Source of the DNA: a virus
IMG/VR virus record: IMGVR_UViG_3300045988_044010
Length of the DNA stretch: 64,000 nucleotides
Direction: 5' to 3' (one strand)
This document shows, one piece after another, positions 12,018-64,000 of the stretch (the stretch's first letter is position 1; each line of letters begins with the position of its first letter). The position numbers were made by a program, and so were the translations under genes. The notes beneath the pieces are model-generated. The model was not told the DNA's origin. It ran no database searches and was given only the letters and a program-made list of their open reading frames with translations.

Positions 12018-12058
12018 AAATATAGAATTTTATTGAAAAATAATAGGTTGTTCTCTTG

Positions 12059-46079: not shown

Positions 46080-46126
46080 GTTTCTATATAAATTATCAAT
46101 TCGCAGTGAACACTGCAAAAAAGGAA

Positions 46127-46152: not shown

Positions 46153-46157
46153 ATTAG

Positions 46158-48521: not shown

Positions 48522-48572
48522 ACTGTAAGAATTTAGTAAGTTTATATATAAGTATTGAATAAAATAGTATCA

Positions 48573-49406: not shown

Positions 49407-49419
49407 AACTGTAATTTTT

Positions 49420-50514: not shown

Positions 50515-51482
50515 TTGTTAATATTTTTAGTTAACCAATTTTTCACTTTATCAAATCCATTAGCTTTTATAGCATCAGATACATCTTTTGCTTTAAACTT
50601 TTTATGAATTAGCATACCTTCTAAGCCTGTTTTCTGGCTCATTTTACGGAGATATTTTACTCCGGCTTCATCTCTATCAAACAATATAATAATACGTTTA
50701 AAACGCTTCTTAAGTTGTTCTAGAACTCTATCAGGTATGAATGTAGATTCAGATGAAGGTGAGATAGCTGGTATACCCATCTCGTATAGGCACATAACAT
50801 CTTTCATACTTTTGGTTATAACAAGTATATCTCCTGTTTTAGGTAATTGTTTATAACCCTGAATGTCTAATTCAGTTAAGTTGTTACGCCATTTTGTATA
50901 TTTATCTGCATATGGTTTATATATCTTAAAATGATTATATACCTTATATGCGTACATAGGATTTTCTTCTTTGTAAACGCTTTTTACTATGCCGTTACAT
51001 AGGTAGTACTTTATACTACTTACTCCAAACTTCTTTAATGTTTCTACCTGTATATTAAACTGCTTCCAGTAATTGATGTCAGTATCGGTAAATTCCTGAC
51101 GTACTACACCAATTACTGTTTCAGTTGACGGTATATATTGCTTAGAGCTATCGAGATGCGTACTACTAGTAATTTTAAGTTTGTTAACTATATCATTTAG
51201 AATATCTGAATAATTAGTTAAACCTGTTATTAAGGATACGAATTTGATAACATTACCACATTCTCCTGTACCATGATCTTTAAACAACAATTGTTTAGTC
51301 TTTCTACTATAGAAACATCCAAACGATGGTGTTTTATCTTTTCTCAATGGAGAATTATAGATCATGCCAACTTTAAAATTGCCAATATACGCTGCATATA
51401 TATCATACTCACTTACTCTAGATAATATATAATCTAAAGTAATAGTAACTTCTTCTTTTATTTTGTTAGTATCAAAAACCAT
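50511..51482 (-). CDS. DnaG-like (Toprim) primase
   Basis: The sequence PLRKDKTPSFGCF...FKDHGTGECGNVIKFV resembles a DnaG zinc-binding region. IILFDRDEAG resembles the Toprim DxD motif. Confidence 0.7.
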   Translation of the reverse strand: MVFDTNKIKEEVTITLDYILSRVSEYDIYAAYIGNFKVGMIYNSPLRKDKTPSFGCFYSRKTKQLLFKDHGTGECGNVIKFVSLITGLTNYSDILNDIVNKLKITSSTHLDSSKQYIPSTETVIGVVRQEFTDTDINYWKQFNIQVETLKKFGVSSIKYYLCNGIVKSVYKEENPMYAYKVYNHFKIYKPYADKYTKWRNNLTELDIQGYKQLPKTGDILVITKSMKDVMCLYEMGIPAISPSSESTFIPDRVLEQLKKRFKRIIILFDRDEAGVKYLRKMSQKTGLEGMLIHKKFKAKDVSDAIKANGFDKVKNWLTKNINK

Positions 51483-51497
51483 ATGATATATTGTTAG

Positions 51498-51584
51498 TGG
51501 CAGTGTAGAGATTTGAACTCTACAGTAAAGGAAAGCTGTATCTTACTTTCTTTACACCATGCTCCTGACACTCCGGAACTGCCA
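51498..51584 (-). ncRNA. tRNA-like element 1 (87 nt), anticodon not assignable
   Basis: In the minus sense there is a T arm TAGAG-TTCAAAT-CTCTA, abutted by acceptor GGCAGT(T)/(C)ACTGCC with discriminator A. An exhaustive 5-bp/7-nt search finds no canonical anticodon arm. The centre is a 10-bp bulged hairpin. Confidence 0.5.
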
Positions 51585-51590
51585 TTAAAA

Positions 51591-51650
51591 CGTAGGTTGT
51601 GTACTATTTCGTAATCACTCATTTTTCATAGTGCGGTACACTAACCTACG
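51591..51650 (-). terminator. Long hairpin followed by a U-run, downstream of the SSB gene
   Basis: In the minus sense CGTAGGTT-A-GTGTAC pairs with GTACAC-AACCTACG (14 bp, one bulge, 31-nt structured loop), followed by TTTTAA. Its function as terminator or processing site is inferred. Confidence 0.4.
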
Positions 51651-51700
51651 TGTTCGTCGTATTATGCCCGACGTGGCGGCTTTATATAAATCCTAACAGA

Positions 51701-52327
51701 TTAGAAAGGTAGATCGTCAGACGGAGCTTCCGATTTGACTTCTAGAGGATTAACTTCTACAGTCTCTTTATCGGATACTACTGGTTTAACGAACAAGTCT
51801 ATACCTGTTATTTCTCGTATCATGCTTTCATTTTTGCCTTCTTCATAAAATCCCATCGGGATAATCATAGGCTCAATTGCTGCAAATTTTACATAACTTG
51901 GAAGTGTAGTATATCCATCTTTATTATAGACAACTTTCACTTTCAACAATGTGTCTTTGTTTGCTGCATTCAGCATAGCAACTACCCAGTTAGTGAATTC
52001 TTTATAAGAACTACCAGTGAAGTTTAATACTTCTTTAGGATAGAAACATCTCAAGATACGATTAATTCTTGTAACCTGATTTGTTGCTTTATTCTGGTTC
52101 TGTTCTTCAGTATCTTCTGCACGTTCCTTAGGTTCCCATTCTGTATGAACAAGTTCCTTGCCGTCTTTCTCGAATCTAAATTCAATGAAATTCTTTCCTG
52201 TTGGAGATACTGCAGTCTTCACTGACGTAAATTTAACATTATCATGAATACCTGCTTCGAGGTATTTAGTATTACTACTATTATTATTTAATGTTACTTG
52301 GTTTGCTAAATCTGTACTATAAATCAT
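51701..52327 (-). CDS. Single-stranded DNA-binding protein (candidate)
   Basis: The C-terminus ...EAPSDDLPF matches the acidic D-D-(I/L)-P-F tail typical of SSBs. It sits inside the replication module. Confidence 0.65.
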   Translation of the reverse strand: MIYSTDLANQVTLNNNSSNTKYLEAGIHDNVKFTSVKTAVSPTGKNFIEFRFEKDGKELVHTEWEPKERAEDTEEQNQNKATNQVTRINRILRCFYPKEVLNFTGSSYKEFTNWVVAMLNAANKDTLLKVKVVYNKDGYTTLPSYVKFAAIEPMIIPMGFYEEGKNESMIREITGIDLFVKPVVSDKETVEVNPLEVKSEAPSDDLPF

Positions 52328-52348
52328 AACTATTTGTTTTGTATTTTT

Positions 52349-53089
52349 TTATTCAGGTAAATATATCTTATTCCAATAAGTAGTGATTTCATTGTTTTCA
52401 TCACTTTCTGCTACTACGATATTCTTTCCTCTTAAATGAGGAGCTCTAGCTTCTATGACAGAGTTATCTCCACCTTCAAAAGAAATATGAGTTTCATTTT
52501 TCTTTCTATATACATAGCCAACAGCATCTGCTTCGCCACATATAATATTTGCTAGTGCACCTACTAGATCAAGAGACATTTCAGACATTTCTTCACCATT
52601 CTTATTAATCAACTTATCTCTAGTATGACCAATAAGAATAAAGTTATCACATAATCCTCGGAACATGTCAATAACTTTTCTTACAGCTTGTCTTATATAT
52701 AAATAACCAGATCCATTAGGCAAGGTTCTGAGGTCTGTACCTTCATACTTCTTGCCCATTGGAGTAGCTTTATATAACTGTATAGCAAAGCTCATGCACA
52801 TCTCTTCCAGTCTTGATGCATTATCAATAGTAATATACTTATAGGGTTTCTTACCTTCTTTTTTAATTTCTTCTCTTATTGCATTTGCAATCTCGCCTAA
52901 ATCATTTACTGATCTAGCTTGAATAGCTAATGCCTCTAAGAATTCTGAACCACCTTCCAAATCGACAATAAGATTATTATCTAATTTAGATGCTAAGGTA
53001 GTTTTACCAGACTTTGGTTTGCCAAACAATATCAAGAATCTAGGATTCTCAATTCTGGCTTTTAATTTCTCTTTTGGTAATACAATCAT
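52349..53089 (-). CDS. Sak4-like / AAA_24-type recombination ATPase
   Basis: Walker A is FLILFGKPKSGKTTLA. The protein has RecA-fold size and lies next to the SSB and nuclease genes. Confidence 0.65.
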   Translation of the reverse strand: MIVLPKEKLKARIENPRFLILFGKPKSGKTTLASKLDNNLIVDLEGGSEFLEALAIQARSVNDLGEIANAIREEIKKEGKKPYKYITIDNASRLEEMCMSFAIQLYKATPMGKKYEGTDLRTLPNGSGYLYIRQAVRKVIDMFRGLCDNFILIGHTRDKLINKNGEEMSEMSLDLVGALANIICGEADAVGYVYRKKNETHISFEGGDNSVIEARAPHLRGKNIVVAESDENNEITTYWNKIYLPE

Positions 53090-53114
53090 AAAGCTAGTTT
53101 ATTTTATGTATCCC

Positions 53115-53143
53115 TCTGATAAATATCTGATAATTTCTGCTAG
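53115..53143 (-). promoter_or_regulatory. Phased TTATCAGA-type repeat cluster upstream of the ATPase gene
   Basis: On the plus strand, TCTGATAA starts at 53115 and 53126, and TCTGCTAG at 53136 (10-11 nt spacing). The cluster lies 26-54 nt upstream of start codon 53089. Confidence 0.5.
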
Positions 53144-53162
53144 TTATGGGATTTATATGTTA

Positions 53163-53678
53163 TTAGAACCAACCGTTATTCTTTACTTTAATAGTAAGAT
53201 TAATGATTGTCTTCTTTGTTTCGGGTTTCAAATAGTTCAATGAACCCGGAGCGATTGGAATGATATCGTATCCAATCTGTACGAAATTGTGGAAAATTTT
53301 AATCGGTGTACCGTAGATATCCTCGAAATCATAATCCAAATCAAATGGATAATTCTTCTTAGCATATGCATCAAGTGCGTCTAATGCTTTAAAGAACTCT
53401 GTTTCAAGGTTATAGTTGTCGATTTTGTAGCACTTTGAGGCAAGTGGACAATTAGCACAAGTCTTAGGCAACCAGCTTACATTGTGTTTCTTACTCAAAC
53501 CTAATGTAATAGTATCACCTGCACCTGCATATTCGATTCCAAAATTAGATTTCGGATAATCAAATGAACTGTCAATAGTCAGCCACGGATATGCTGTAAT
53601 AACGCGTTCCATCAACGCATCTTTATAAATCTTTGCACTATTTTCTTTCTTCGGTAATGTAAATGTATATGTTTTCAT
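53163..53678 (-). CDS. Hypothetical protein
   Basis: Intact standard-code ORF with a TAA stop. Confidence 0.7.
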   Translation of the reverse strand: MKTYTFTLPKKENSAKIYKDALMERVITAYPWLTIDSSFDYPKSNFGIEYAGAGDTITLGLSKKHNVSWLPKTCANCPLASKCYKIDNYNLETEFFKALDALDAYAKKNYPFDLDYDFEDIYGTPIKIFHNFVQIGYDIIPIAPGSLNYLKPETKKTIINLTIKVKNNGWF

Positions 53679-53704
53679 AAATTCAGCCTTTTTAATTGTT
53701 ATTA

Positions 53705-54673
53705 CTAAAACGAAATCTTCTTTGCTGGTTCTTCATTTCGTATAGTTTCAATTAAATTATTGTATTTCAGATCGTTGTCGAATTCTAATATCGAGCATTG
53801 TCCAGCATCTCTATTCTTTATAAGATGCAAGTAGACTTTGTTATTAACTGGTAAACGATTCGGTCCATACTGTTGGATATTTAGTAACTCTGGTCTGTGA
53901 ATACAAATAACATAATCGGATGCATGAAATATTGTATCAGCAGAAGAAATATCACTACGCATTGGATAATGCATAGATGGATTGTTAATTCTATCAGGAG
54001 TTTCAATGTTACGATTCATCTGTGATAACTGTATTACAGTGGTATTAGGTAACTTTTTTACCTTAATAAACAGTTTCTGTAAATCGGAAATCACTTGCAG
54101 TGCTGACTCGCGAGATTGACCTTCAACAAGTAAAGTATGGTCAAGTATGACTATAAATTTCTTGCCTTTAGCTTTATTCTCATAGAAGTAGTCTATAGTA
54201 GAAGCTATATCTTCAACTGTACCCGGTGTATCTACATAATATATCGGATATGATTTTATCTGTTGAGAAGTCTCTTCGACTTTGGCTAACGATTCATTAT
54301 CTAAATCATTGTTAGCACTATATAGCTCAGCAGTAGTTAGCCTTAACTTACTGCTTAATTTTCTACCAACCTGCCTAGAACTTAACATCTCAAATGAGAA
54401 GTTAAGTACTATAACATCCTGATCAGAATTTAGATCTATTAAATCATTTTCTAACGTATTAACAAATGATGACTTTCCACTACCTGATATACCCACTATT
54501 GTATATACAGTATTCGGTTCAATACCGCCCATACAGACAGCATTAAACTTATTCCATCTTGTTTTAAGAGACTTTACCTCATGGTTCTTTCTCTTCTTAA
54601 TATACTCCGTAGCTTCTTTTGTTGCTGCTGATATATGCTGGAATTGTAGTATTTTAGTAGAGATCTGTTCCAT
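53705..54673 (-). CDS. DnaB-like (RecA-fold) replicative helicase
   Basis: Walker A is IVGISGSGKSSF and Walker B-like is FIVILDHT. The gene stops at TAG, immediately followed by TAA. Confidence 0.7.
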   Translation of the reverse strand: MEQISTKILQFQHISAATKEATEYIKKRKNHEVKSLKTRWNKFNAVCMGGIEPNTVYTIVGISGSGKSSFVNTLENDLIDLNSDQDVIVLNFSFEMLSSRQVGRKLSSKLRLTTAELYSANNDLDNESLAKVEETSQQIKSYPIYYVDTPGTVEDIASTIDYFYENKAKGKKFIVILDHTLLVEGQSRESALQVISDLQKLFIKVKKLPNTTVIQLSQMNRNIETPDRINNPSMHYPMRSDISSADTIFHASDYVICIHRPELLNIQQYGPNRLPVNNKVYLHLIKNRDAGQCSILEFDNDLKYNNLIETIRNEEPAKKISF

Positions 54674-55220
54674 AACTATTTGTCATAATTGGTTCTTCTA
54701 CTTTCATCTGTTCCTCGTAAGTCTCCCACTCATGTTGAGTGAGCCATTTCCACATAGTTTTCATATAACCTAATTTGCCGGTAAGCATTTTATTATCTAT
54801 CTCATACTTAAGACAGTTACAGATATGCTGATGCATAGCTTTGCTTTTTCCAACTATTCTATTATATTCCTTCCTACATTTGTTCACATTTGCTCTAAGG
54901 AAACCTTTGGTTCCATCAGGGCGTATAACATAAACTGGAAATAGGTCATAAAATTCATCAAACATAGATTTATCTTCTTTAAGAAGTTCTTCTAGTTCTT
55001 TTGTTTTCTTTATGACAGTAGTATCATCTACTATTTTGGTAGTGATTAGTTTACGAGACTCTAACTCTTGTATCTCTTCTTCATTAACTAGGCTGAGAAG
55101 TTTCTGAATGTCTTGATTGATGGTTTGATTATCACTCAATACAAGTGTTAGGAATACTAATTGATTCATAGATAAATCTGAAATTCTATCTAAGATAGAA
55201 GTGTCTATTTCTAAAATCAT
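54654..55220 (-). CDS. Hypothetical replication-module protein
   Basis: Intact ORF lying between the polymerase and helicase genes. Confidence 0.6.
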   Translation of the reverse strand: MILEIDTSILDRISDLSMNQLVFLTLVLSDNQTINQDIQKLLSLVNEEEIQELESRKLITTKIVDDTTVIKKTKELEELLKEDKSMFDEFYDLFPVYVIRPDGTKGFLRANVNKCRKEYNRIVGKSKAMHQHICNCLKYEIDNKMLTGKLGYMKTMWKWLTQHEWETYEEQMKVEEPIMTNSYGTDLY

Positions 55221-55249
55221 ATTCTCATATTATTATATGAGCTATGGTC

Positions 55250-55279
55250 TCTGAAATATATCTGATAAGCCTCTGTTAA
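55250..55279 (-). promoter_or_regulatory. Phased TTATCAGA-type repeat cluster upstream of gene 54654..55220
   Basis: On the plus strand, TCTGAAAT starts at 55250, TCTGATAA at 55261 and TCTGTTAA at 55272 (exact 11-nt spacing). The last copy overlaps the polymerase stop codon. Confidence 0.5.
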
Positions 55280-57225
55280 TCCCATAGGCTCATTTGTAAC
55301 GGTTTTAATTCTCTGATTATCTTATAGGCTTCCATAATGTAATACCTATAATTAATCTTTCTCTCTTCAATTGGTTTATCATCTAAGTAATTTAATAAAG
55401 TAACACCAGATGCAGTAAGCATATTCTGATACTGTTTTTCTGTAGGACATGGAATACTTATATCGAAACGATTAGTATCCTTTTCCTTCCATTTCCACAA
55501 GTAAGCACCATTAGTACTTGCATAGAAACGGTTTGTTCTCTGTTGTTCTTTATTATTATACTCAACATGCCATTGTTTACCAGTCTTTTCAGACATTAGA
55601 AAATCTCTAATATCTTTGCAACCTTTTATAGTTTCTTCTACTGGTACTCCGTTCTTAAAAAAGTTTATTACTGCTTTCGGTATGATCTTCGGAGTTAGAC
55701 CTTTCCCTAATTTCACAGTAGTAATAAACATACCCTTCTCTTTTACCTTATCATCTTCAGTAATAGCAAAGTAGTCATTTATAGCATATTGATACATAGC
55801 TTTAAAACGTTCTTCCTCAAGCGTTAGCCTAGTAAGTTGTTCCCATTCTCTGCAAACGTTGTTAACTTTTGAATATACGTCTTTCTTAAGTAAGACAAAT
55901 AATCCATCAGTATTTGCTTGGACGATTCGACATCCTAATTGGGTAAGTTTCTCTGCTAGCATTAGTAATAGTAACTGTCCATTTATTCTGATTTGCATTA
56001 CAGCAAATGGACTATAACAGAAATTGTGTTCATTCTGTAAGTTACCAGATAATCCATTGAGAGCAAGCTTTAAGGTTTCATTTTTAACCTTATTGCCATT
56101 GTGTTTAGCTTCAATTCGCTCATCTTTAATTTGTTTATATACTTCTAGGAATTCAGGACCTAAATGTTTAGGATAGAATTCATATTCTATTAGCATACTT
56201 GGATATAGAGATGCAACATCTATATCAATGAGCATTTCATCTTCTTTCGGAATAATTATTTCAGGTTTATTCACTGAGTGAATTCCTCCGACTCCTACAG
56301 AATACTGTAATCCTTCAAATACGAATTTATTTTCGTATCCTTTTCTACCTGGAGATACTATTTGACTTTTCATGTCATTTAGTACTCTAGTTAGTATAGG
56401 ACTATCATATTTAATAAAAGGTAGTATAACACTATTTAATGGTATTACTGACATAGGAGATCTTAAATCTTTAATATCCCACCATGTTTGACCTGTTTTC
56501 TCAAGATACTTCTGAGTCAAGATCTTCATACCAATGTTTACACCATCTTTACTAAGTACACGTACTCCATATTCATCTTCAATAGCTATTCTTAAGTCGA
56601 TGTCTTTTTTACATCTATTGAGTAATTCCTCAGTAGAATTAACATCATTAATATTATAATCAATCATTGAATCAATTTGATTCTCAGGCAAATCTGCCTG
56701 CCAATCAGCAACAAATTCTTGTACATTCTTGTACTGCATTGTTACTTGAATTTCTTTCAAACCTACTCTTAGCTTATTACTATATAACATAGTAAGAATA
56801 TCAAAAGAGTCAAAACAAATCATATACTTCCACTTTCTCCAAGCAGAATTATCATCCTCACTTGAAGTAGTAATTACTTTACTTAGGTTAAACACAGACC
56901 TACAAATGTCTCTATAACCTTTATATTTCATTATATTGTAACAATCTATTATATAGTTTATAATAGCATTATCATAATGAAGATTATTATAACCACAAAA
57001 TAATATGTTAGTATCTAACTTAATATCTGTAGTATATAAATCTCCGAAAGTATATTTTGTATTAACTGTATGAAAGAATTCAACTAATTCATCTAATTGA
57101 TTTCTTCTGCAAGATATTTCAAATTTATGCAATTCACCTGTTTCTGTATTTTTTACAGTACAATGGAAGACATTGGGGAATACCTCAATATCATATACAT
57201 AAACAATCTTATCTCGTATAATCAT
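55276..57225 (-). CDS. Family B DNA polymerase
   Basis: ExoI is VYDIEVF, ExoII is YNNLHYDNAII and ExoIII is YNINDVNST. Motif A is DVASLYPSM, motif B-like is KLALNGLSGNL and motif C-like is QANTDGLFV. Confidence 0.9.
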   Translation of the reverse strand: MIIRDKIVYVYDIEVFPNVFHCTVKNTETGELHKFEISCRRNQLDELVEFFHTVNTKYTFGDLYTTDIKLDTNILFCGYNNLHYDNAIINYIIDCYNIMKYKGYRDICRSVFNLSKVITTSSEDDNSAWRKWKYMICFDSFDILTMLYSNKLRVGLKEIQVTMQYKNVQEFVADWQADLPENQIDSMIDYNINDVNSTEELLNRCKKDIDLRIAIEDEYGVRVLSKDGVNIGMKILTQKYLEKTGQTWWDIKDLRSPMSVIPLNSVILPFIKYDSPILTRVLNDMKSQIVSPGRKGYENKFVFEGLQYSVGVGGIHSVNKPEIIIPKEDEMLIDIDVASLYPSMLIEYEFYPKHLGPEFLEVYKQIKDERIEAKHNGNKVKNETLKLALNGLSGNLQNEHNFCYSPFAVMQIRINGQLLLLMLAEKLTQLGCRIVQANTDGLFVLLKKDVYSKVNNVCREWEQLTRLTLEEERFKAMYQYAINDYFAITEDDKVKEKGMFITTVKLGKGLTPKIIPKAVINFFKNGVPVEETIKGCKDIRDFLMSEKTGKQWHVEYNNKEQQRTNRFYASTNGAYLWKWKEKDTNRFDISIPCPTEKQYQNMLTASGVTLLNYLDDKPIEERKINYRYYIMEAYKIIRELKPLQMSLWD

Positions 57226-57245
57226 AATATAATAATGTTAGTTTG

Positions 57246-57368
57246 AGTCCATGAGAAGATTCGAACTTCTAACTTAGGCATTTATTATCAGGCTCTACAG
57301 TCTGTTTATTATGATGCCAGAGGTCGTTGGAACCCCACTTTTTGTTTTGCCTATTAAACTACATGAAC
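57246..57368 (-). ncRNA. tRNA-like element 2 (123 nt) with about 50 extra nt in the core
   Basis: In the minus sense: acceptor GTTCATG/CATGGAC (7 bp, one G-U), D arm GTTT-AATAGGCA-AAAC, and T arm AGAAG-TTCGAAT-CTTCT. Between them lie hairpin GGGGT-TCCAACG-ACCTC and a 42-nt arm GGCAT...ATGCC. That arm contains an ATAATAAA direct repeat flanking 16 nt. Confidence 0.45.
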
Positions 57369-57433
57369 AACCGGTGTTATTACCGACATTGCAATTAAAG
57401 AATCATATAATTATTGTATTTTGCTAGCAGATT

Positions 57434-57937
57434 TTAGGCGGCTAGCTTTACCTTTTTCATTTGGTATATCTTAGCTGTACTCTTTCGAGCAAAACCTCGA
57501 TTTTTCTTTTGTCGATGACAATTTGTATGATCAACGGGTTCAGTATTATACGTACGTTTGTACGTTTCTTTGAACGCTACAAGGGAAGCTTTGTGCTTAG
57601 CCTTGTCTTCTTTGCTCTGCTTAGCAGATGCAATTTTGGCTTGTTTCATATGAATAATCATCATATTGAATTTAGCCTGAGCAGTTGTTAACTTATTATC
57701 CTTATTGAATTGAGGATAATTAGGAGTTTGCAACTTAAAATGTTCTTTTCTAGCTTCTGCTAGTGCTTTTAAGTGAGCTTTTCTTTTAGCTCTCTTCTCC
57801 TGTAATTTAGGATCATCCCACATCGGACATGTGTTCTCTCCCTTTACGTTAGGTTTTCTTCCTGAGATAGCTCTTGCAGCTTTTTTATAAGCATTCTTTG
57901 CTTTTACTATAGCTTCTATTTGTTCTTTTGTCTTCAT
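57434..57937 (-). CDS. Lys-rich basic protein ending in ...KLAA
   Basis: Intact ORF with a TAA stop. Confidence 0.7.
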   Translation of the reverse strand: MKTKEQIEAIVKAKNAYKKAARAISGRKPNVKGENTCPMWDDPKLQEKRAKRKAHLKALAEARKEHFKLQTPNYPQFNKDNKLTTAQAKFNMMIIHMKQAKIASAKQSKEDKAKHKASLVAFKETYKRTYNTEPVDHTNCHRQKKNRGFARKSTAKIYQMKKVKLAA

Positions 57938-57962
57938 ATCTTGATAATGTTAAAAGTTAAAC

Positions 57963-58763
57963 CTATGCTGCTAACAGCGTTGTCTTAGGATAGTAGATAA
58001 TAGCATTATCTTTACTATCTTTTAGTCGTACTCCAGTAAACGAAGTATCATTTTTGTACTTCTTAATTACTGTAGCTGCTTTCTTTTTTGCATCTTCTCG
58101 GCTATTAGCTTTGAAGTAGTCAGTTTGGAAATCATAATCCTTCATAGGATTATCGTCTGAACGGCGCTGAATCGTACAAGTGAATTGGCGCTCTTCTTCT
58201 TTTTCTTTCACGGACAGATCTGCAGCCGTGTAACTTGGCTGTATATGCCTCTTAATAAAATCTAGAACCTTATCCTTGTGAGTTACTTCGGATATGTGTT
58301 TTCTAGATTCTAACAGTTCTTTTTTATGCTTTTTCTTAGCATTTATACGAGCTTTAATGTCTTCATCTGTTAACATAAGCGGTTTTGGTTGAACAAACAA
58401 GTTGTTTTTTACAGCACGAGTGAATTTCTTCTTCTCTGCTCTAGTATACTTAACTGTAGGATCATATCCTACTTTTTCAAGTATCTGTTTAATTCGTTCT
58501 TTCTTGGCTATCTTAGCAGCTTTGTTATCTTCCATAGCCTTCTTTGCTACATCAGTCAAATGATCAGCTAGATGTACTTTCTTGCTGTTACTGATGAAAC
58601 CTATTACTTTCCCATCTTTATCGTATTTAATATACTTTGACAGACCCAGTTCAACTTTAGTAAGGTATTCTACCTTCTTCGATCTACGAAGTTTACTTTT
58701 GTTGGTGGTTGATAATTTAACTCCTGTTCGTTTTCCTTTTTTATTTGCTAATATCTTTTTCAT
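57963..58763 (-). CDS. Lys-rich basic protein ending in ...LLAA
   Basis: Intact ORF. It stops at TAG, then GTT TAA. Confidence 0.7.
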   Translation of the reverse strand: MKKILANKKGKRTGVKLSTTNKSKLRRSKKVEYLTKVELGLSKYIKYDKDGKVIGFISNSKKVHLADHLTDVAKKAMEDNKAAKIAKKERIKQILEKVGYDPTVKYTRAEKKKFTRAVKNNLFVQPKPLMLTDEDIKARINAKKKHKKELLESRKHISEVTHKDKVLDFIKRHIQPSYTAADLSVKEKEEERQFTCTIQRRSDDNPMKDYDFQTDYFKANSREDAKKKAATVIKKYKNDTSFTGVRLKDSKDNAIIYYPKTTLLAA

Positions 58764-58784
58764 CTTGATAATCTTAAAAGTTAT

Positions 58785-58991
58785 TTACTTGCTAAAACCT
58801 TTTATAACTTGTTTAGTTTCAGCGTTTGTATTCTCTGTATAATATATGACTAGATTCTTATCTTCATAAGTTATCTGTACTAATTCTCCAGAGGAGTAAG
58901 CACTTGCTATAGCTTTGTTTACTCGCTTTTCGTAGTGCTTACTAGTCTCTAGAAAATGTTTCCTTAGAAATACTGCATTCCTTTTTATCAT
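58785..58991 (-). CDS. Small hypothetical protein
   Basis: Intact ORF, start-stop coupled to its neighbours. Confidence 0.55.
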   Translation of the reverse strand: MIKRNAVFLRKHFLETSKHYEKRVNKAIASAYSSGELVQITYEDKNLVIYYTENTNAETKQVIKGFSK

Positions 58992-59497
58992 GCTACTAAC
59001 GCTAACGGAGCAGATTCAATATCTAACTCTGCTTTATCATTAAACTCTTCAAGATCCTTGTTGAGTTTGTTTATTTCTAATTGAATTTTGTTCTTAATAG
59101 TGTTAAGATAAGCTGAAGTCAGCTCTTCTGTAACCTTTAAGTTCTTTTTACCTTTTGCACGTTTGATTTTTGGATCAATTGTACGAATCTTATTAAGATG
59201 GAACAACTGTTCTGTCTTTTCACTTAGAGCAAAGATAGTATAATAATTATTATCTACTGGAAGCTCTGAGAACTTCTTATATCCCATATTGATACACTGC
59301 AAGTACAGTTTCATCAACAGACGTTCCTCTGACATCTCAGAGATCTTTGTAAGCATTACTTTCAGATCAAAATTACGCTTAGCCTCTGTTGAGATTACAT
59401 TCTCATTTTTAATAATATTCCAGTATTTAGTAATTTCCTTACTTAACTCGTCACGACGAGTTTTTGCATATTTAGATGTAATTGATTTCATATTCAA
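58988..59497 (-). CDS. Hypothetical protein ending in ...LALVA
   Basis: Intact ORF with a TGA stop. Confidence 0.7.
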   Translation of the reverse strand: MNMKSITSKYAKTRRDELSKEITKYWNIIKNENVISTEAKRNFDLKVMLTKISEMSEERLLMKLYLQCINMGYKKFSELPVDNNYYTIFALSEKTEQLFHLNKIRTIDPKIKRAKGKKNLKVTEELTSAYLNTIKNKIQLEINKLNKDLEEFNDKAELDIESAPLALVA

Positions 59498-59546
59498 GTG
59501 ATTTGTTTTTTAAATTAATACTTGACCGAAATACATCTACCAGTTG

Positions 59547-59610
59547 TGGTATGTAGCGGAATCAAACCGCTGTCTCCTTAAAGGCAACTCTATCACTAAG
59601 CTAACATACC
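59547..59610 (-). ncRNA. tRNA-like element 3 (64 nt, truncated core)
   Basis: In the minus sense: perfect 7-bp acceptor GGTATGT/ACATACC with discriminator A, and T arm AGCGG-TTTGATT-CCGCT. Only 32 nt remain for the D arm, anticodon arm and variable region. The best anticodon-like arm is GTTGC-CTTTAAG-GAGAC, with one mismatch and one G-U. Confidence 0.45.
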
Positions 59611-59702
59611 GAATATAGAAACTGCCCATCCAGCAGCCTCTATTATAATAGTACCCGTCCAGTACTATAAAGAATAGAAGAGTTGTATCCAATCCAACAC
59701 AA

Positions 59703-60275
59703 CTAATTTCTTATTATTTTATTCTTGACTTGACCCACAACATTTGCTATGCGTCCGCCACCTAAGTCAATACCAAGAGTTGCTAATAGAGGTCCCTCTA
59801 TAGTAATCTCTTCTTTGGTACGATGTCCATTCTCTTTAGCATACTTCTGTATAGCTTCCTGATTGATATATTTTGAGTGTAAAGCCCCGTCCGAACAATT
59901 TCTCATACTATCAAACAAGATATCTACTACACAGTCGTAGTCTTTTTTCTTTATAGCTTCATCTAAAATACTTTTAGTAATTCCATCAAAAGCTAATTCA
60001 TTACGAGTTCCATGAGAACCTGTAATAACATCTGCTACACGTAAAGCGACGTCTACAATGCTTACCAGTTCATAATCATTGCAACATCTCTGCCACCATA
60101 AAGGTCCTTTTCCACAGTAAAAGATGACCGTTCCATCCTCTCTTACTTGTAGTTTTTTACCTGTTTTTCTTCCACTTCCATCCTGAAAGGATATCTTTGA
60201 AAGGATTGCTGGTTCGCAACTAATAAGTATTCGCAGAAGTTCTACCCGTACAGGGTCAATTCTGCACGTAGCCAT
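59703..60275 (-). CDS. Hypothetical protein (GC-enriched gene), TAG stop
   Basis: Intact standard-code ORF. The next in-frame TAA lies 20 codons downstream, at 59643-59645. Confidence 0.7.
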   Translation of the reverse strand: MATCRIDPVRVELLRILISCEPAILSKISFQDGSGRKTGKKLQVREDGTVIFYCGKGPLWWQRCCNDYELVSIVDVALRVADVITGSHGTRNELAFDGITKSILDEAIKKKDYDCVVDILFDSMRNCSDGALHSKYINQEAIQKYAKENGHRTKEEITIEGPLLATLGIDLGGGRIANVVGQVKNKIIRN

Positions 60276-60277
60276 AC

Positions 60278-60925
60278 CTATTGTTGTTCGATGTTAATGT
60301 TAAGGTTTACTTCCTCGCTATTCTGCGGTTCTACGCCACACTGGCGAGCATACTCAACCTGCATGCGTTCCTGCTCTTCCTGCATGCTCCGAACAGTACC
60401 ACTAAGTTTAGTATACTTACGAGCAAGCTCTTCATAGAATGTGCATACACTTGTGTTATGAAGTGCCAGCAATTCATTGAGCATTGGCAATTCTTCAGCT
60501 GAGAAGAAGATAGGTTTACCACCTTTCTTTCCAATCCGGCTAATACAATCAGCGATTGTATCACGAGTTGCTTTAGCAAGCTGGGGCGGAACAAGGTTAA
60601 ATACTAAATTCGGATCGTTACTTTCCGGATTCAACATGATCTTCGGTTCACCGTCAAAATCTTTCGGTAAGAACTTCAAACCGGTAATGTCGATAGGTTT
60701 AATCAGGAACACAGTTACTTCTTTCCGTAACGTATTCTTATCATTAAGTACGTCTTCCTTGTACTTAAGATCTGGATTTGTACCTACGATAGTATAGATC
60801 TGTTCTGAGAAGAAACGACCATACTGTTTTGCTACAGCCCGATAACGAGCAAGAATCTGAGAAGCAATATTAGCTTCAGGGTTTGTCTGAGCACTATTTG
60901 TGCTAGCAGTTACTTGTACTTCCAT
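60278..60925 (-). CDS. Hypothetical protein (GC-enriched gene), TAG stop
   Basis: The track ORF starts at TTG 60964. I prefer ATG 60925 (MEVQVTAS...), but the start is uncertain. Confidence 0.65.
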   Translation of the reverse strand: MEVQVTASTNSAQTNPEANIASQILARYRAVAKQYGRFFSEQIYTIVGTNPDLKYKEDVLNDKNTLRKEVTVFLIKPIDITGLKFLPKDFDGEPKIMLNPESNDPNLVFNLVPPQLAKATRDTIADCISRIGKKGGKPIFFSAEELPMLNELLALHNTSVCTFYEELARKYTKLSGTVRSMQEEQERMQVEYARQCGVEPQNSEEVNLNINIEQQ

Positions 60926-61113
60926 AAAAATGTTTCCTTTCTGAGTCCGTACTTGATATACCAATACGAACCATTTTTATACTCTTGGTTAATAATTAAT
61001 TTTAAGCTCTCCACCTTTCGATTATTTAATAGCACTACAGTAATGGTAGTGGTGAATTCAATCACATAATCTACTCAGCATAAAAATAATAAATGTTAAT
61101 TTATTTGAAAATA

Positions 61114-61150
61114 TCTGATAATGATAAGATCTCTGATAATTTTCTGATAA
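61114..61150 (-). promoter_or_regulatory. TTATCAGA-type repeat cluster next to an AT-rich tract (early promoter/operator or origin candidate)
   Basis: On the plus strand TCTGATAA starts at 61114, 61132 and 61143, and TGATAAG lies at 61122-61128. An AT-rich run at 61081-61113 is adjacent. Confidence 0.45.
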
Positions 61151-61160
61151 ATATCGTTTT

Positions 61161-63004
61161 AACGTCCCGTTTCGACGGTTAAGATTCAACTCCTTCGATG
61201 CTTAACGCACCTCTCACCGTTATTTCATATCGCTATTAGATGCAATATGAAAGACTTTATCATCAGTTCACGATGAACCTACTTAGTATTTCCGGATTTA
61301 TCGAAATTCGTTTGAATTACGGTCGTTTATCTAACGTTACCAACTCACAAGCTCATTACCTATAGTATGACCCACTTGTACCTCTCGGATTTCTTATTTA
61401 TACTGCACGAACACGAGGATTTCCACCTCTCATCGTCTCCTTGCTTGCTTAGCTGCTATTGCTACTAAGTGTACTCTCCCTTAAATCTACCGAGACAGGG
61501 TGATAGGAGGCAGGTCATTGACGAATCAGCGTTCTCTTTACATATATACTTGCGGTATATACTTTATGAGTTTCTAATGTCAGCGATGACGGTTGGCAGT
61601 CTGGGGTGACTCGTACTCCATGCGGTCTATCTTACAACTGATAATTTGCTACTTCTGTACTATCATTGAACTTCCCAATTTCATATATCAGGTTATCAGC
61701 CTAATACGAGATTAAACAATTTGAAAACACATTTTACCATTAGCTGGTTTTCTTCAGCTTTTACTGTTTTCAGATTAAGAATATATCTGTCATCACATCT
61801 ATATTCACTACCTTCTGGTTGTAGGATTCCAACCCTACAGCAGCTGTATTCTTACTTTAGTAAACTTAGTTTAAAGTACTTCTACTATATAGTTATTACT
61901 TCTCTTCAACTCAGGAGTGAGGCGATGCTTGTAATTAACCAGTCTTTACATATCTTGAAAAACATAAGCTCTGCTGTTTTTTAGTAGGAGTTCCTAGCGT
62001 CTCCTTAAAATCATTTTATATCATAATCATACTTGCTAAAGGTATGTGATAACTAGAATCAGGGTTATCGCGCCCTCAAACCGCTTAGACACTCTGGGTC
62101 TATTCATTCCTCATTCAATTATACTCACACGAACGAATAAGCACGTGAGTCACCTTAGACTTGAAAGACGGTATCAATCTCATATACCTCATCCCTTATA
62201 CGTAAGTTCTTTTGCGGCACGCTAGTTACGGTAGCGCACAGGATTGGCTCCTGCTCCCTGGTAATCAGTCTATTTTCACCACAGTTTAGCATGGTTACTT
62301 AGGATCATTGCATGTCCAGCCTTCATATCCTTACTTTGTATAAGTATGTACCATAACACGGTTATCCTTACATTAGTATCAGTTATTTACTCCCTTTATA
62401 TTACGAACCAATTATCGTAAAAACACTAGAGTTAGCCTATTTTTCCAATCAGGACGCATAGTTGCGCTTTTGTATGAAGCGAGGTTGGAACCCGCTTGTT
62501 GCGTTAGTCAGCCTTAATATTGTCCAACAATCCTTTTCCAAGGGATTGTTCAAGAACACTTTGTTCTTGTCTCAGCATCGTGTTTATATTCCTTTTTGAG
62601 TCACATCTTGATAGTGCATACGAATATAGGGATTTCGTTCCCTTTGAGCTGTTTGTAATTCAGTGTGTCTTCTCTTAAATTACGAGTCTTTAATTAATCA
62701 AATCACCAATCGGTTCTCATTATCATAATCTTATTTGAAGGTTGCTCACTCTCACCTCCTCTTACACAGGTTTCACGTGTGTAAGCTAACATCTTACCTT
62801 TTGTTATCTCAACTGTTTTAGCAGTATACATATTCTCAGATCATGTACTTTTCGGACCATGTGTAAATGAACACAAGCTTCCTGACACAGTGCGCATTGT
62901 CTTATTTTAGACACCGCTTGCCTTCTGTCGGAGTGATTTACGCTATAGTTTTACTCCTCTCGAACTATGACATAATTATAGTATTTATAAAGCGGCTATT
63001 GTCA
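61161..63004. other. ORF-free, GC-enriched region (candidate large structured RNA or cis-acting region)
   Basis: The track shows no minus-strand ORF of 60 or more codons, and only one low-complexity TTG-initiated plus ORF. TTA, TCA, TAA and TGA are frequent in all frames I sampled, so TAG recoding does not rescue coding. Several perfect local hairpins are present. Confidence 0.5.
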
Positions 63005-63430
63005 TTAACTTTTTTCCGCTGAGGATTTATCTTCTCCTGCATTAAGTTGCTCTGGTTTGATTAGCGCAATTTTTCCAGATGATAAGTTGATATTTGCAAC
63101 TACCTTCTCACCACGGCATATATCTACTATGCCATCGCTTATATCTCTACTACAGATATAATCAATCGGATCCATTTTACCCGGATCAAAACCATCCAAG
63201 CATTTACATAAATACCTTACAGACGAACGTAAGTACTGCTCTAAGTATAGGGTATTATCTACACTCTGCTTTGTCTTAGCTTCAAGAGAGTTACTAGATT
63301 CTCCTTGAATAATAAAATATTCAGTTTGAACTATGGCATTATTTAACTCACGCCTAGCATTCTTGAAGTTACGAATAATCCGAGATAATCTCATCATCGA
63401 ATTAAGCGTAGAAATATTCCTATTCTTCAT
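63005..63430 (-). CDS. Hypothetical protein
   Basis: Intact standard-code ORF with a TAA stop. Confidence 0.65.
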   Translation of the reverse strand: MKNRNISTLNSMMRLSRIIRNFKNARRELNNAIVQTEYFIIQGESSNSLEAKTKQSVDNTLYLEQYLRSSVRYLCKCLDGFDPGKMDPIDYICSRDISDGIVDICRGEKVVANINLSSGKIALIKPEQLNAGEDKSSAEKS

Positions 63431-63821
63431 TATTAGAATCTTTAGTAAAAGGAGAAAGTGGCTTTACATCCTCTGGCAAGTTAGCTATGCTACTTACTTT
63501 TGGAAATCCTGTATTTACTTCTTTTACTTTAGTTCTCCACTTAACAACTGGTTTAACTTCACCTGTTGTTGTTACATTGACGACTGCGTCTGTTGTTCCT
63601 TTTATGGATACTTCCTGAGTGTTTACATCGACAGCGATATTAATTGTGTCGATACTCACAGACGATTTCTCTTTAATTTGAGGCTTTGTCATAGACATTA
63701 GCTCCAAATATGAGGGAATCACAGGCTGTGCCTGTACTTTTTCAGTTGTACCTATTAGATTCCAGCCAACAAAAATACTGGCGAAGAACACTACTAGAAC
63801 TGATAAAACTCTACTAGTCAT
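63420..63821 (-). CDS. Hypothetical secreted/membrane-anchored protein, TAG stop
   Basis: The N-terminus MTSRVLSVLVVFFASIFVGWNLIG is hydrophobic. Confidence 0.65.
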   Translation of the reverse strand: MTSRVLSVLVVFFASIFVGWNLIGTTEKVQAQPVIPSYLELMSMTKPQIKEKSSVSIDTINIAVDVNTQEVSIKGTTDAVVNVTTTGEVKPVVKWRTKVKEVNTGFPKVSSIANLPEDVKPLSPFTKDSNNEE

Positions 63822-63898
63822 ATTGATTATGATTTAATTAGAGTGAAAGATTCTTCTCCATGTGAGAATACGCTTCCACGCACTAAGAATCCACAGCG

Positions 63899-64000
63899 TT
63901 AATTTTTTTTTTCAGCTGGTTTTTCCTCTTCTGCGGGTTTCTGTTCAGTAACAGGATATTCGCCGGATACGACGATATCTTTAGCTACTTCGTATTCTGC
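63899..64000 (-). CDS. 3' end of a CDS continuing beyond the window
   Basis: The reading is ...AEYEVAKDIVVSGEYPVTEQKPAEEEKPAEKKN, ending at a TAA formed directly after an A10 run (T10 on the plus strand, 63903-63912). Confidence 0.5.
   Translation of the reverse strand, partial: AEYEVAKDIVVSGEYPVTEQKPAEEEKPAEKKN

What the first reader, a model, noticed from the sequence alone, without database searches (positions are those of the whole stretch)
57246..57368. tRNA-like element 2: a normal tRNA frame carrying about 50 extra nucleotides, with an 8-nt direct repeat flanking a 16-nt insert
The acceptor (7 bp), D arm and T arm (AGAAG-TTCGAAT-CTTCT) are canonical. However, 72 nt lie between position 26 and the T arm, where about 22 are expected. 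This core folds as GGGGT-TCCAACG-ACCTC plus a 42-nt arm GGCAT...ATGCC. If the first hairpin is the anticodon arm, the anticodon is CAA, but positions 33 and 37 are then C, which is atypical. Inside the long arm, ATAATAAA occurs twice and flanks CAGACTGTAGAGCCTG, resembling a target-site duplication around a mini-insert. The element could be an oversized type-II (Leu-like) tRNA, an interrupted tRNA, or a stable tRNA-like RNA. It lies just upstream of the DNA polymerase gene.
Basis: seen in the sequence. Interest (0 to 1): 0.65.

Follow-up and report, generated by a model that had tools for sequence, protein, structure and literature searches.

The report
tRNA-shaped leader without an anticodon
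This is a real tRNA-shaped RNA element in a gut crAss-like phage that has lost its decoding arm and carries a two-hairpin RNA module in its place; it belongs to an apparently undescribed set of such elements that sit directly in front of the phage's DNA polymerase and primase genes, most likely as RNA-processing signals.

Summary
On the minus strand (57368-57246) there is a perfect tRNA frame of acceptor, D arm and T arm (Rfam tRNA 39.2 bits, gathering score 29, found only in sensitive mode). It has 73 nt where about 23 are expected, and it ends 20 nt before the DNA polymerase ATG. It is not a decoding tRNA, an intron-containing tRNA or a transposon insertion. In about 155 related Suoliviridae loci the same slot always holds something tRNA-shaped: a genuine tRNA-Met or tRNA-Arg, or a frame whose anticodon arm is absent (8-nt linker), reduced to a capped mini-hairpin, or replaced by a long structured arm. 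The frame covaries strongly (14 of 16 pairs compensatory) and no anticodon is conserved. The "direct repeat plus insert" is an intrinsic part of a two-hairpin module also found, outside any tRNA frame, in crAss phage cr111_1. A near-identical phage (L007) carries a different element, swapped as a 170-nt cassette. A second tRNA-like element precedes the primase gene, and that slot shows the same variability in 68 of 80 relatives. The best explanation is a tRNA-derived RNase P/Z-type punctuation element, possibly also serving as a scaffold for a small RNA. The function is inferred, not shown.

The parts
57362..57368 (-). Acceptor stem, 5' strand (GTTCATG)
   Evidence: Pairs 7 of 7 with 57247-57253. 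All 7 acceptor pairs show compensatory changes across lineages.
57344..57359 (-). D arm GTTT-AATAGGCA-AAAC, with G18 G19
   Evidence: A14, G18, G19 and A21 are invariant across 22 distinct frames.
57320..57336 (-). Module hairpin H1: GGGGU-UCCAACG-ACCUC
   Evidence: Folds in isolation. The same hairpin occurs in cr111_1 with altered stem pairs (G-C to U-A, G.U to A-U). The loop is 1 nt shorter in L089.
57277..57318 (-). Module hairpin H2: outer stem GGCAU/AUGCC, two AUAAUAA(A) internal-loop strands (57312-57305 and 57288-57281), and inner hairpin CAGAC-UGUAGA-GCCUG (57304-57289)
   Evidence: In cr111_1 the outer stem is replaced by AUCUGU/ACAGGU and the inner A.C becomes G-C, while both AUAAUAA strands are kept.
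57254..57270 (-). T arm AGAAG-TTCGAAT-CTTCT
   Evidence: G53, T54, T55, C56, A58 and C61 are invariant, and 4 of 5 stem pairs are compensatory.
57246..57253 (-). Acceptor stem 3' strand (CATGGAC) plus discriminator T (57246). No CCA is encoded.
   Evidence: The discriminator varies (T, A or C) among lineages.
57226..57245 (-). 20-nt leader CAAACTAACATTATTATATT between the element and the polymerase ATG (57225), containing the conserved CTAAC
   Evidence: The distance from the acceptor end to the ATG is 19-23 nt in all but one parsed polymerase locus, and CTAAC or ACTAAC follows the element in nearly all lineages.
57251..57420 (-). Exchangeable cassette: the element plus its 5' spacer, including a small hairpin at 57386-57371
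   Evidence: The window and L007 are 93.8% identical up to 57421 and 98.0% identical from 57250 onward, and non-homologous in between (170 nt against 115 nt). The small hairpin has a compensatory change in L089 (CGGT/ACCG to CGGC/GCCG).
51497..51584 (-). Second tRNA-like element ('element 1'), upstream of the DNA primase ORF (ATG at 51482): acceptor TGGCAGT/ACTGCCA, long arm, T arm (G)TAGAG-TTCAAAT-CTCTA(C), then C-TAAC
   Evidence: (z=-2.78). The primase is phrog_12622. The same slot is occupied in 68 of 80 relatives.

Best explanation
The element is a tRNA-derived, non-decoding tRNA-like RNA. It keeps exactly the parts of a tRNA that form the acceptor/T-arm helix and the D-loop/T-loop elbow, and the anticodon arm has been replaced by a two-hairpin module. 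It lies inside the early (replication) transcription unit, between a 167-aa ORF and the DNA polymerase gene.

Proposed mechanism (inferred): host tRNA-processing enzymes recognise the tRNA shape. RNase P cuts at its 5' end (57368), and RNase Z or an equivalent enzyme cuts after the discriminator (57246). This separates the upstream message from the polymerase message, gives the polymerase mRNA a defined 20-nt AU-rich leader starting at CAAACUAAC, and releases a small RNA of about 123 nt that displays the module. Any tRNA shape can do this job, which is why the slot holds true tRNAs in some lineages and anticodon-less frames in others, and why elements are swapped as cassettes.

Shown: the structure, its conservation and covariation, the absence of any conserved anticodon, the slot's fixed position, the cassette exchange, and the second slot at the primase gene.

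Inferred: co-transcription, cleavage by RNase P/Z, and any effect on polymerase expression.
For: (1) The frame is a genuine tRNA fold: Rfam 39.2 bits.

(2) Across 22 distinct frames from the same slot, 97.7% of cells are paired and 14 of 16 pairs have double compensatory changes. The covariation score is 0.755, against 0.27 for shuffles (0 of 500 reach it) and at most 0.185 for slid controls. The invariant positions are U8, A14, G18, G19, A21, G53, T54, T55, C56, A58 and C61.

(3) The only domain that is free to vary is the anticodon domain: an 8-nt linker, GNRA- or triloop-capped mini-hairpins, a 12-nt loop, a 68-69-nt UUCG-capped rod with 3 compensatory pairs, or the window's 73 nt. From established knowledge of RNase P, RNase Z and the CCA-adding enzyme, this is the one arm those enzymes do not require.

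(4) True tRNA-Met(CAT) (7 loci) and tRNA-Arg(TCT) (9 loci) occupy the identical slot in other lineages. They lack an encoded CCA and are followed by the same CTAAC.

(5) The 3' end is always 19-23 nt from the ATG. In type B relatives the element starts about 12 nt after the upstream stop codon, leaving no room for a promoter on either side.

(6) An independent second slot in front of the primase behaves the same way: 68 of 80 loci, centres of 10-104 nt, and a nested insertion series at the D-T junction.

(7) The discriminator and acceptor sequences are not conserved, so no aminoacylation identity is maintained.

(8) The lineage has a normal amber suppressor elsewhere (cr109_1 tRNA-CTA), so this element is not needed for decoding the TAG-recoded late genes.
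Against: There are no RNA data, so transcription, cleavage sites and the existence of a stable ~123-nt RNA are all untested. A bare acceptor/T minihelix would suffice for RNase Z, so the strong retention of the D arm and GG needs the additional assumption that elbow recognition by RNase P matters. The replacement modules are themselves conserved and structured, and the window's module recurs in cr111_1; pure punctuation does not require either. Cleavage would leave a 5'-monophosphate mRNA, which in many bacteria is destabilising. The host is not identified here: the relatives' records give no host, Bacteroidales is assumed from the literature on crAss-like phages (PMC7886860), and that host's processing enzymes were not examined. 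Element 1 is preceded by a terminator-like hairpin plus a U-tract, which complicates simple read-through co-transcription at that slot.
Confidence: 0.5

Rival explanations
1. Cis-acting leader element that stays attached. The tRNA-like fold remains at the 5' side of the polymerase (and primase) mRNA and controls its translation or stability. It might act as a protective 5' structure, or as an operator bound by a phage or host tRNA-binding protein. This would be analogous in logic to the T4 gp43 polymerase translational operator or to tRNA-mimicking operators such as thrS.
For: The distance to the ATG is tightly fixed (19-23 nt at the polymerase, 14-21 nt at the primase) and a CTAAC/AU-rich leader is conserved. 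Both slots precede replication genes.
Against: An operator for a specific protein would be expected to conserve sequence, yet acceptor, T-stem and discriminator sequences all vary freely and true tRNAs of two different specificities can fill the slot. The conserved positions are the generic tRNA tertiary nucleotides, which suggests generic tRNA-handling enzymes.
Confidence: 0.2
2. Trans-acting tRNA-scaffolded small RNA or decoy. The tRNA frame serves mainly to produce and stabilise a small RNA whose active part is the variable central module, or the frame itself acts as a decoy or sponge for host tRNA-targeting defence or tRNA-binding factors. Diversifying selection would explain the cassette swapping.
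For: The window's module is homologous (81.5% over 53 nt, E=9e-5) to a segment of cr111_1 that is not in a tRNA frame and is followed about 35 nt later by an intrinsic-terminator-like hairpin, so it resembles a stand-alone sRNA. The type B/C module has a conserved structure with compensatory pairs and a UUCG cap. There is a nested series of inserts at the same junction in the primase slot. Near-identical phages carry different cassettes.
Against: The commonest Buchavirus form has no cargo at all (8-nt linker), and several lineages have only a capped stub, so cargo cannot be the conserved function. The module is very rare: two phage lineages, and none in species-representative bacterial genomes. 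No target or partner was identified. A decoy for anticodon nucleases is excluded because there is no anticodon loop.
Confidence: 0.17
3. A functional decoding tRNA of unusual form: either an oversized class II (Leu-CAA-like) tRNA, an intron-containing tRNA, or a cryptic suppressor for the TAG-recoded late genes.
For: Hairpin 1 has anticodon-arm geometry (5 bp plus a 7-nt loop). Intron-tolerant ARAGORN returns a call (Ser-AGA). The late genes of this phage are TAG-recoded, and undetected suppressors have been postulated for some crAss-like phages (PMC7886860; bioRxiv 10.64898/2026.08.21.746148).
Against: C33 and C37, 6 extra nt 5' of hairpin 1, and a 6-nt loop in L089. The ARAGORN solution has a mismatched stem and a non-canonical intron position, and anticodon calls disagree among close relatives. 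No CUA lies in any loop with U33. The closest frames (type A) have no arm at all. No group I intron signal was found and the insert is far too short for one. A canonical tRNA-CTA suppressor exists in the complete relative cr109_1.
Confidence: 0.03
4. A decaying tRNA pseudogene that has been hit by a small mobile insert (8-nt target-site duplication), with no function.
For: True tRNAs occupy the slot in distant relatives, so the element is tRNA-derived. 5'-truncated remnants exist in some lineages (L081/82/84, L098, L103). The 8-nt repeat flanks a 16-nt hairpin.
Against: Strong compensatory covariation maintains all three stems and the tertiary nucleotides across lineages, which neutral decay would not do. 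The repeat-hairpin-repeat unit is conserved as a whole in a different genomic context in cr111_1. No empty site is seen. The same architecture is maintained independently at the primase slot.
Confidence: 0.03

Closest known systems
tRNA punctuation of polycistronic transcripts (animal mitochondria; also tRNA-mRNA co-transcripts such as the E. coli tufB operon and phage T4 tRNA cluster). From my own knowledge, not tested here.
   Same: tRNA-shaped units sit directly between coding regions. Processing by RNase P/Z would define the ends of the neighbouring mRNAs. True tRNAs fill the same slot in some lineages.
   Different: Here most units are not tRNAs at all: the anticodon arm is deleted or replaced. 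The system is in a dsDNA phage of gut bacteria, and the cleavage is not demonstrated.
mascRNA / MALAT1 and MEN-beta tRNA-like 3' elements, and the tRNA-like parts of murine gammaherpesvirus 68 TMERs. From my own knowledge.
   Same: They are non-decoding tRNA-like folds whose role is to recruit RNase P/Z so as to process a longer transcript and release a small RNA. MHV68 is a viral precedent.
   Different: Those are eukaryotic nuclear systems (the MHV68 units are Pol III-driven) and they retain a reduced anticodon-like stem. None has a module swapped into the anticodon position, and none acts as the leader of a replication gene.
Engineered 'tRNA scaffold' for recombinant RNA expression (anticodon arm replaced by a cargo RNA). 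From my own knowledge.
   Same: The architecture is identical: acceptor, D and T arms are kept and a structured cargo is inserted where the anticodon stem-loop was. There is a nested series of cargo sizes at the same junction.
   Different: That is a laboratory design. A natural counterpart in phages is, as far as the searchable literature shows, not described. Many natural members carry no cargo.
tRNA-like domains of tmRNA and of bacterial Y RNA-like YrlA. From my own knowledge.
   Same: Acceptor plus T arm with a D-loop remnant that keeps GG and forms an elbow without an anticodon arm. This is most like the 10-nt-centre primase mini-form.
   Different: There is no G3.U70 alanine identity, no mRNA-like ORF or pseudoknots, no Ro-binding stem, and ARAGORN makes no tmRNA call. 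The genomic context is different.
Canonical phage-encoded tRNAs (Rfam RF00005)
   Same: It is derived from them, scores above the tRNA gathering threshold, and occupies the same slot as true tRNA-Met and tRNA-Arg.
   Different: It has no anticodon stem-loop at the canonical position, no conserved anticodon and a variable discriminator.

Membership tests
Canonical decoding tRNA (RF00005) | Cloverleaf frame: 7-bp acceptor, D arm with G18 G19, T arm with TTCRANY loop, and a score at or above the Rfam gathering threshold | tested here: met
   39.2 bits against a gathering score of 29, full model 1-71. Stems pair 16 of 16. Found only with permissive filters; default cmscan and default ARAGORN miss it.
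Canonical decoding tRNA (RF00005) | A 5-bp anticodon stem with a 7-nt loop (U33, purine 37), one nt after the D stem and 4-5 nt (or a class II arm) before the T stem | tested here: not met
   73 nt occupy the centre. The only 5-bp/7-nt hairpin is offset by 6 extra nt and has C33 and C37. The Rfam alignment skips 65 nt.
Canonical decoding tRNA (RF00005) | The anticodon (and hence specificity) is conserved among orthologues | tested here: not met
   L089 has a 6-nt loop in hairpin 1. Type A orthologues have no arm. ARAGORN -i calls differ (Ser, His, Ile, Tyr or none) among related elements.
Canonical decoding tRNA (RF00005) | Conserved aminoacylation identity elements (discriminator, acceptor pairs) | tested here: not met
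   The discriminator is T, A or C, and all 7 acceptor pairs vary with compensation. Charging itself is not testable here.
Class II (long variable arm) tRNA, Leu/Ser/Tyr type | A variable arm of roughly 10-24 nt emerging between the anticodon stem and the T stem, with an otherwise canonical anticodon arm | tested here: not met
   The arm is 42 nt plus 7 flanking nt, the putative anticodon arm is displaced by 6 nt, and it is not conserved.
Intron-containing tRNA (bacterial group I intron in the anticodon loop, or archaeal/eukaryal bulge-helix-bulge intron at 37/38) | A recognisable intron (group I core of about 200 nt or more, or a BHB motif) whose removal restores a 7-nt anticodon loop | tested here: not met
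   No group I intron hit at E<=10 and the insert is at most 65 nt. The best intron-tolerant ARAGORN model puts a 39-nt intron at 32/33 with 2 non-pairs in the stem.
tmRNA tRNA-like domain | G3.U70, a tag-peptide ORF, and detection by ARAGORN | tested here: not met
   ARAGORN finds no tmRNA. Pair 3:70 is U.G in the window and U-A in L089.
Mobile mini-insert (MITE/IS-like) with target-site duplication | The flanking direct repeat is target-derived, so it differs between insertion sites, and empty sites exist in relatives | tested here: not met
   The same AUAAUAA strands flank the hairpin in cr111_1 at an unrelated locus. All window-type copies (L089, L092) have the full unit and no relative has a single-repeat site.
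tRNA-like processing / punctuation elements (mitochondrial punctuation, mascRNA, MHV68 TMER type) | The acceptor/T-arm helix and elbow are retained while the anticodon domain is dispensable | tested here: met
   Covariation and invariant tertiary nucleotides in the frame. The centre ranges from 8 to 73 nt at the polymerase slot and from 10 to 104 nt at the primase slot.
tRNA-like processing / punctuation elements | Embedded in a longer transcript, directly abutting another functional RNA | tested here: inconclusive
   The position is intercistronic with no space for a promoter: about 12 nt after the upstream stop in type B, and 19-23 nt before the ATG. Transcription itself was not observed.
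tRNA-like processing / punctuation elements | Cleavage by RNase P at the 5' end and RNase Z at the 3' end, with release of a small RNA | not testable with these tools
   This needs RNA-end mapping or in vitro cleavage.

The most novel reading that the evidence does not exclude
Suoliviridae (delta-group crAss-like) phages use tRNA frames as natural, exchangeable scaffolds. The acceptor, D and T arms recruit host tRNA-processing enzymes, and the anticodon position is a docking site into which structured RNA modules of 0 to about 90 nt are inserted, swapped between phages by recombination, and released as stable small RNAs. The same cleavage would also set the 5' ends of the polymerase and primase mRNAs. 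The window's cargo would be a two-hairpin sRNA module shared with a stand-alone locus in a phage of a different crAss family. This would be a natural counterpart of the engineered tRNA scaffold, and a new class of phage small RNAs.
Probability: 0.25. Interest if true: 0.8.

Novelty: new variant of a known kind. Interest (0 to 1): 0.66.

Why it matters

These results define a conserved, easily recognisable RNA element at two fixed slots, in front of the DNA polymerase and primase genes. Standard tRNA finders and annotation miss it. In the related genomes examined it is either unannotated (cr109_1, cr113_1, cr56_1, cr52_1 and cr60_1) or receives a forced ARAGORN call such as "tRNA-His(atg)" or "tRNA-???".

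It gives a natural experiment on which parts of a tRNA are needed for non-decoding roles, because everything but the anticodon arm is kept. It also gives a testable model for mRNA punctuation in a phage, and possibly a natural tRNA-scaffold system for small RNAs.

In practical terms, it warns that tRNA counts and "pseudogene" calls in Crassvirales genomes include functional non-decoding elements. It also shows that the search for "missing suppressors" in recoded phages should not rely on these loci.

Tried and rejected
- **Hidden amber suppressor.** The window's late genes are TAG-recoded and no tRNA is called in the window. However, there is no CUA in a proper loop, the orthologues are armless, and the complete relative cr109_1 has a normal tRNA-CTA with encoded CCA.
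It gives only forced, mutually inconsistent calls.
- **More copies of the central module.** I tried three exact-pattern scans of IMG/VR, metagenomes and species-representative bacterial genomes, plus two BLAST searches. They found only L089 (a sister phage), L092 (the same phage as the window) and cr111_1. The other hits (L090, L091, L093, L094, H27, H33) are chance matches in coding DNA. There are therefore too few sequences for a statistical covariation test of the module, and the compensatory pairs were read directly.
- **Known RNA family for the module or for the cr111_1 noncoding region.** No Rfam hit at E<=10.
- **Covariance model from full-length elements.** MAFFT misaligned the D arm when the long centres were included, so I used a stem-based parser and centre-trimmed alignments instead.
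- **Promoter and terminator scan.** It is uninformative in this AT-rich genome, and the consensus used is not the Bacteroidetes one.
- **Pairing between the AUAAUAA strands and UUAUUAU in the polymerase leader.** I considered this, but the leader is the same in type A phages that lack the module, so there is no co-variation to support it.
- **Literature.** Six full-text searches found no description of these elements. Absence from that library is not proof of novelty.
Full report
**What is there.** The window is a crAss-like phage of the Suoliviridae (Buchavirus-like). Its closest database relatives are cr109_1, cr113_1, cr56_1, cr52_1 and cr60_1. The finding lies on the minus strand at 57368-57246.
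- acceptor GTTCATG/CATGGAC
- D arm GTTT-AATAGGCA-AAAC
- 73 nt of centre
- T arm AGAAG-TTCGAAT-CTTCT
- discriminator T

A 20-nt leader follows (CAAACTAACATTATTATATT), then the ATG of a DNA polymerase (phrog_1252, E=4e-148). Default ARAGORN and default Rfam filters report nothing. With permissive filters the Rfam tRNA model matches end to end at 39.2 bits (gathering score 29), skipping 65 nt where 15 are expected. A stem-based scan finds no other full-scoring frame in the window. The 8-nt direct repeat alone is only mildly unusual (7% and 1.8% of shuffles).

**What the relatives show.** I anchored on the polymerase protein and collected 160 IMG/VR loci in two scans, plus five RefSeq crAss genomes. 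In essentially every locus a tRNA-shaped element ends 19-23 nt upstream of the polymerase ATG and is followed by CTAAC or ACTAAC. What fills the slot differs by lineage:
- Genuine tRNA-Met(CAT), of two sequence types.
- Genuine tRNA-Arg(TCT) (ARAGORN).
- A 5'-truncated tRNA-Met.
- Frames with acceptor, D arm and T arm joined by only an 8-nt linker, with no anticodon arm at all (cr109, cr113, cr60 and cr52, and 13 IMG/VR loci).
- Frames with a 5-6-bp stub capped by GTAA, GAAA, a triloop or a 12-nt loop, with compensatory stem changes between lineages.
- Frames with a canonical anticodon stem closing a 52-nt structured "loop" that ends in a UUCG-capped hairpin and has three compensatory pairs (cr56-like, 15 loci).

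The window's 73-nt centre occurs in none of the 77 informative loci of the first scan. It was found only in L089 (a sister phage) and in L092 (the same phage as the window, from a metagenome).

**The frame is under selection and the anticodon is not.** I aligned 22 distinct frames from this slot with the centre removed. 97.7% of cells form standard pairs, and 14 of 16 pairs show changes on both sides. The covariation score is 0.755, against 0.271 for shuffles (0 of 500 reach it) and at most 0.185 for slid controls. The invariant columns are the classical tertiary positions U8, A14, G18, G19, A21, G53, T54, T55, C56, A58 and C61.

A caveat applies: the frames were delimited with a parser that required mostly paired stems. 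However, they are positional orthologues, and all but four of the 77 loci passed.

By contrast, no anticodon is conserved under any reading:
- L089 has a 6-nt loop where the window has UCCAACG.
- Type A has no arm.
- The discriminator varies (T, A or C).

This is therefore neither a decoding tRNA nor a neutral pseudogene.

**The "insert with target-site duplication".** The central module matches an unannotated noncoding region of cr111_1, a phage of a different crAss family (Steigviridae), at 81.5% over 53 nt (E=9e-5). That copy keeps both AUAAUAA strands and the hairpin between them, and the stems differ in a structure-preserving way:
- H1: G-C becomes U-A, and G.U becomes A-U.
- H2 outer stem: GGCAU/AUGCC becomes AUCUGU/ACAGGU.
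- Inner hairpin: the A.C mismatch becomes G-C.

In cr111_1 the module is not inside a tRNA frame, and a terminator-like hairpin with a U-tract follows about 35 nt later. The repeat is therefore an intrinsic part of a two-hairpin RNA module and not a target-site duplication. No relative shows an empty site. The module has no Rfam match, and I found it in no bacterial species-representative genome.

**Cassette behaviour.** L007 encodes a polymerase 100% identical to the window's but carries a type B element. At the nucleotide level the two phages are 93.8% identical through the upstream ORF to 57421 and 98.0% identical from 57250 onward. The 170 nt in between (115 nt in L007) are non-homologous. 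The element is thus exchanged as a unit, between a conserved GCTAGC...GCTAGC hairpin at the upstream stop codon and the 3' end of the acceptor stem.

**A second slot.** While checking whether CTAAC is a general leader motif, I found a second tRNA-like element at 51584-51497 on the minus strand. It has acceptor TGGCAGT/ACTGCCA, a 10-bp long arm, T arm TAGAG-TTCAAAT-CTCTA, then C-TAAC and 10 nt to the ATG of the DNA primase (phrog_12622). Rfam and ARAGORN miss it. In 80 primase-anchored loci, 68 have an acceptor plus T arm ending 14-21 nt before the ATG, with centres of 10-104 nt. They include:
- another armless form
- a mini-form of about 40 nt that keeps only a TGG D-loop remnant
- a nested series of 15/16, 45, 58 and 92 nt inserted at the same D-T junction
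- a frame with a canonical D arm and an anticodon stem closing a 77-nt loop

None is a real tRNA. The phenomenon is therefore general for the replication genes of this phage group.

**Genetic-code context.** The + strand late genes of the window are TAG-recoded. ORF content rises from 7,792 to 15,366 aa when TAG is read as sense, and 23 of 28 long ORFs end at TAG. The minus-strand early genes use the standard code. Because undetected suppressors have been proposed for some recoded crAss-like phages (PMC7886860; bioRxiv 10.64898/2026.08.21.746148), I tested that idea and rejected it. The complete relative cr109_1 carries a canonical tRNA-CTA with encoded CCA just upstream of its late genes, a region outside this window, and the polymerase-proximal elements have no usable anticodon.

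**Mechanism.** The shown facts are a fixed intercistronic slot, strict maintenance of the acceptor/T helix and D/T elbow, free loss or replacement of the anticodon domain, interchangeability with true tRNAs of different specificity, no conserved charging identity, and no encoded CCA.

It is established knowledge, not tested here, that RNase P, RNase Z and the CCA-adding enzyme recognise the acceptor/T-arm helix and elbow and do not need the anticodon arm. The simplest model is therefore tRNA-type punctuation. Host enzymes would excise the element from the early transcript, which would set the 5' end of the polymerase (and primase) mRNA about 20 nt before the ATG and release a small stable RNA. 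I rate this at about 0.5.

The main rivals are:
- A leader element that stays attached and controls translation or stability (0.2).
- A primarily trans-acting tRNA-scaffolded small RNA or decoy (0.17). This is favoured by the conservation of the modules and by the cassette swapping, and disfavoured by the many cargo-less members.
- A decoding tRNA (0.03).
- A dead pseudogene with a mobile insert (0.03).

The first three models are not mutually exclusive.

**Comparison and novelty.** Functionally the closest known systems are mitochondrial tRNA punctuation, the mascRNA/MALAT1 and MHV68 TMER tRNA-like processing signals, and, architecturally, the engineered tRNA scaffold. These comparisons come from my own knowledge. 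The element passes the structural membership test for "tRNA-like processing element". It fails the tests for decoding tRNA, class II tRNA, intron-containing tRNA, tmRNA and target-site-duplication-flanked insert. Cleavage itself could not be tested.

Six full-text searches, including the main crAss comparative-genomics paper, found no description of these elements. RefSeq records leave them unannotated. I therefore classify the finding as a new variant of a known kind. The specific window element is one rare cargo-bearing member of a broader, apparently undescribed set.

Noticed in passing
It lies 15 nt upstream of the DNA primase ATG (51482). Both ARAGORN and Rfam miss it. The same slot is occupied by diverse tRNA-like forms in 68 of 80 related loci.
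   Followed up: yes
window 1-46000 (+ strand) compared with 46000-64000 (minus strand): The late/structural genes are TAG-recoded: ORF content doubles when TAG is read as sense, the largest ORF becomes 4,544 aa, and 23 of 28 long ORFs 'end' at TAG. The early minus-strand genes use the standard code. No tRNA, and hence no suppressor, is called within the window. The relative cr109_1 has its tRNA-CTA just upstream of the late block.
   Followed up: partly
window 10749-13303 (+ strand): A diversity-generating retroelement. The variable repeat is at 11903-11995, at the C-terminus of a 422-aa ORF. The template repeat is at 12061-12153, 77% identical, with the differences mostly at template A positions. 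A sub-threshold RT-17 RNA (RF03020) match lies at 12202-12284 (35.4 bits against a gathering score of 40.4). A reverse transcriptase ORF is at 12269-13303 (RVT_1, E=6e-17).
   Followed up: partly
window 51590-51651 (minus strand); cr109_1 L088 ~33355-33420: A long conserved hairpin ACGTAGGTT...AACCTACGT followed by TTTTA lies immediately 5' of the primase tRNA-like element. It is nearly identical in cr109_1. It looks like a terminator or attenuator, or another structured RNA.
   Followed up: no
window 57422-57445 (minus strand): A palindromic pair GCTAGC...GCTAGC brackets the stop codon of the 167-aa ORF upstream of the element. In cr52-like phages it is replaced by GCAGGC...GCCTGC, a compensatory change, so it is probably a conserved RNA hairpin. 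It marks the 5' boundary of the swapped cassette.
   Followed up: partly
L002 (cr111_1) 2858-3443: A 590-nt noncoding region holds the module homologue. It also has two terminator-like hairpins (ATCTCCTC...GAGAGGAGAT+TTTTT and CCTACTC...GAGAGTAGG+ATTTTT) whose loops are nearly identical (AATGACTTGGTAA and AATGACTTAGTAA). This suggests a pair of related small RNA genes. There are no Rfam matches.
   Followed up: no
L098, L103, L081, L082, L084 (about 40 nt upstream of the polymerase ATG): In these lineages only the 3' half of a tRNA-Met (AAGGTCGTAGGTTCGAATCCTACCCCCGCA) remains in the slot, with its 5' half replaced by unrelated sequence. These are natural truncations that could show whether the complete frame is required.
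   Followed up: no
L032, L038, L066, L069, L076, L078 (1.4-2.2 kb upstream of the polymerase): In the more distant lineages a genuine tRNA-Arg(TCT) lies 51-54 nt (68 nt in L066) upstream of an ORF of about 167 aa that corresponds in size and position to window ORF 57937-57434. The window has no tRNA at that position.
   Followed up: partly
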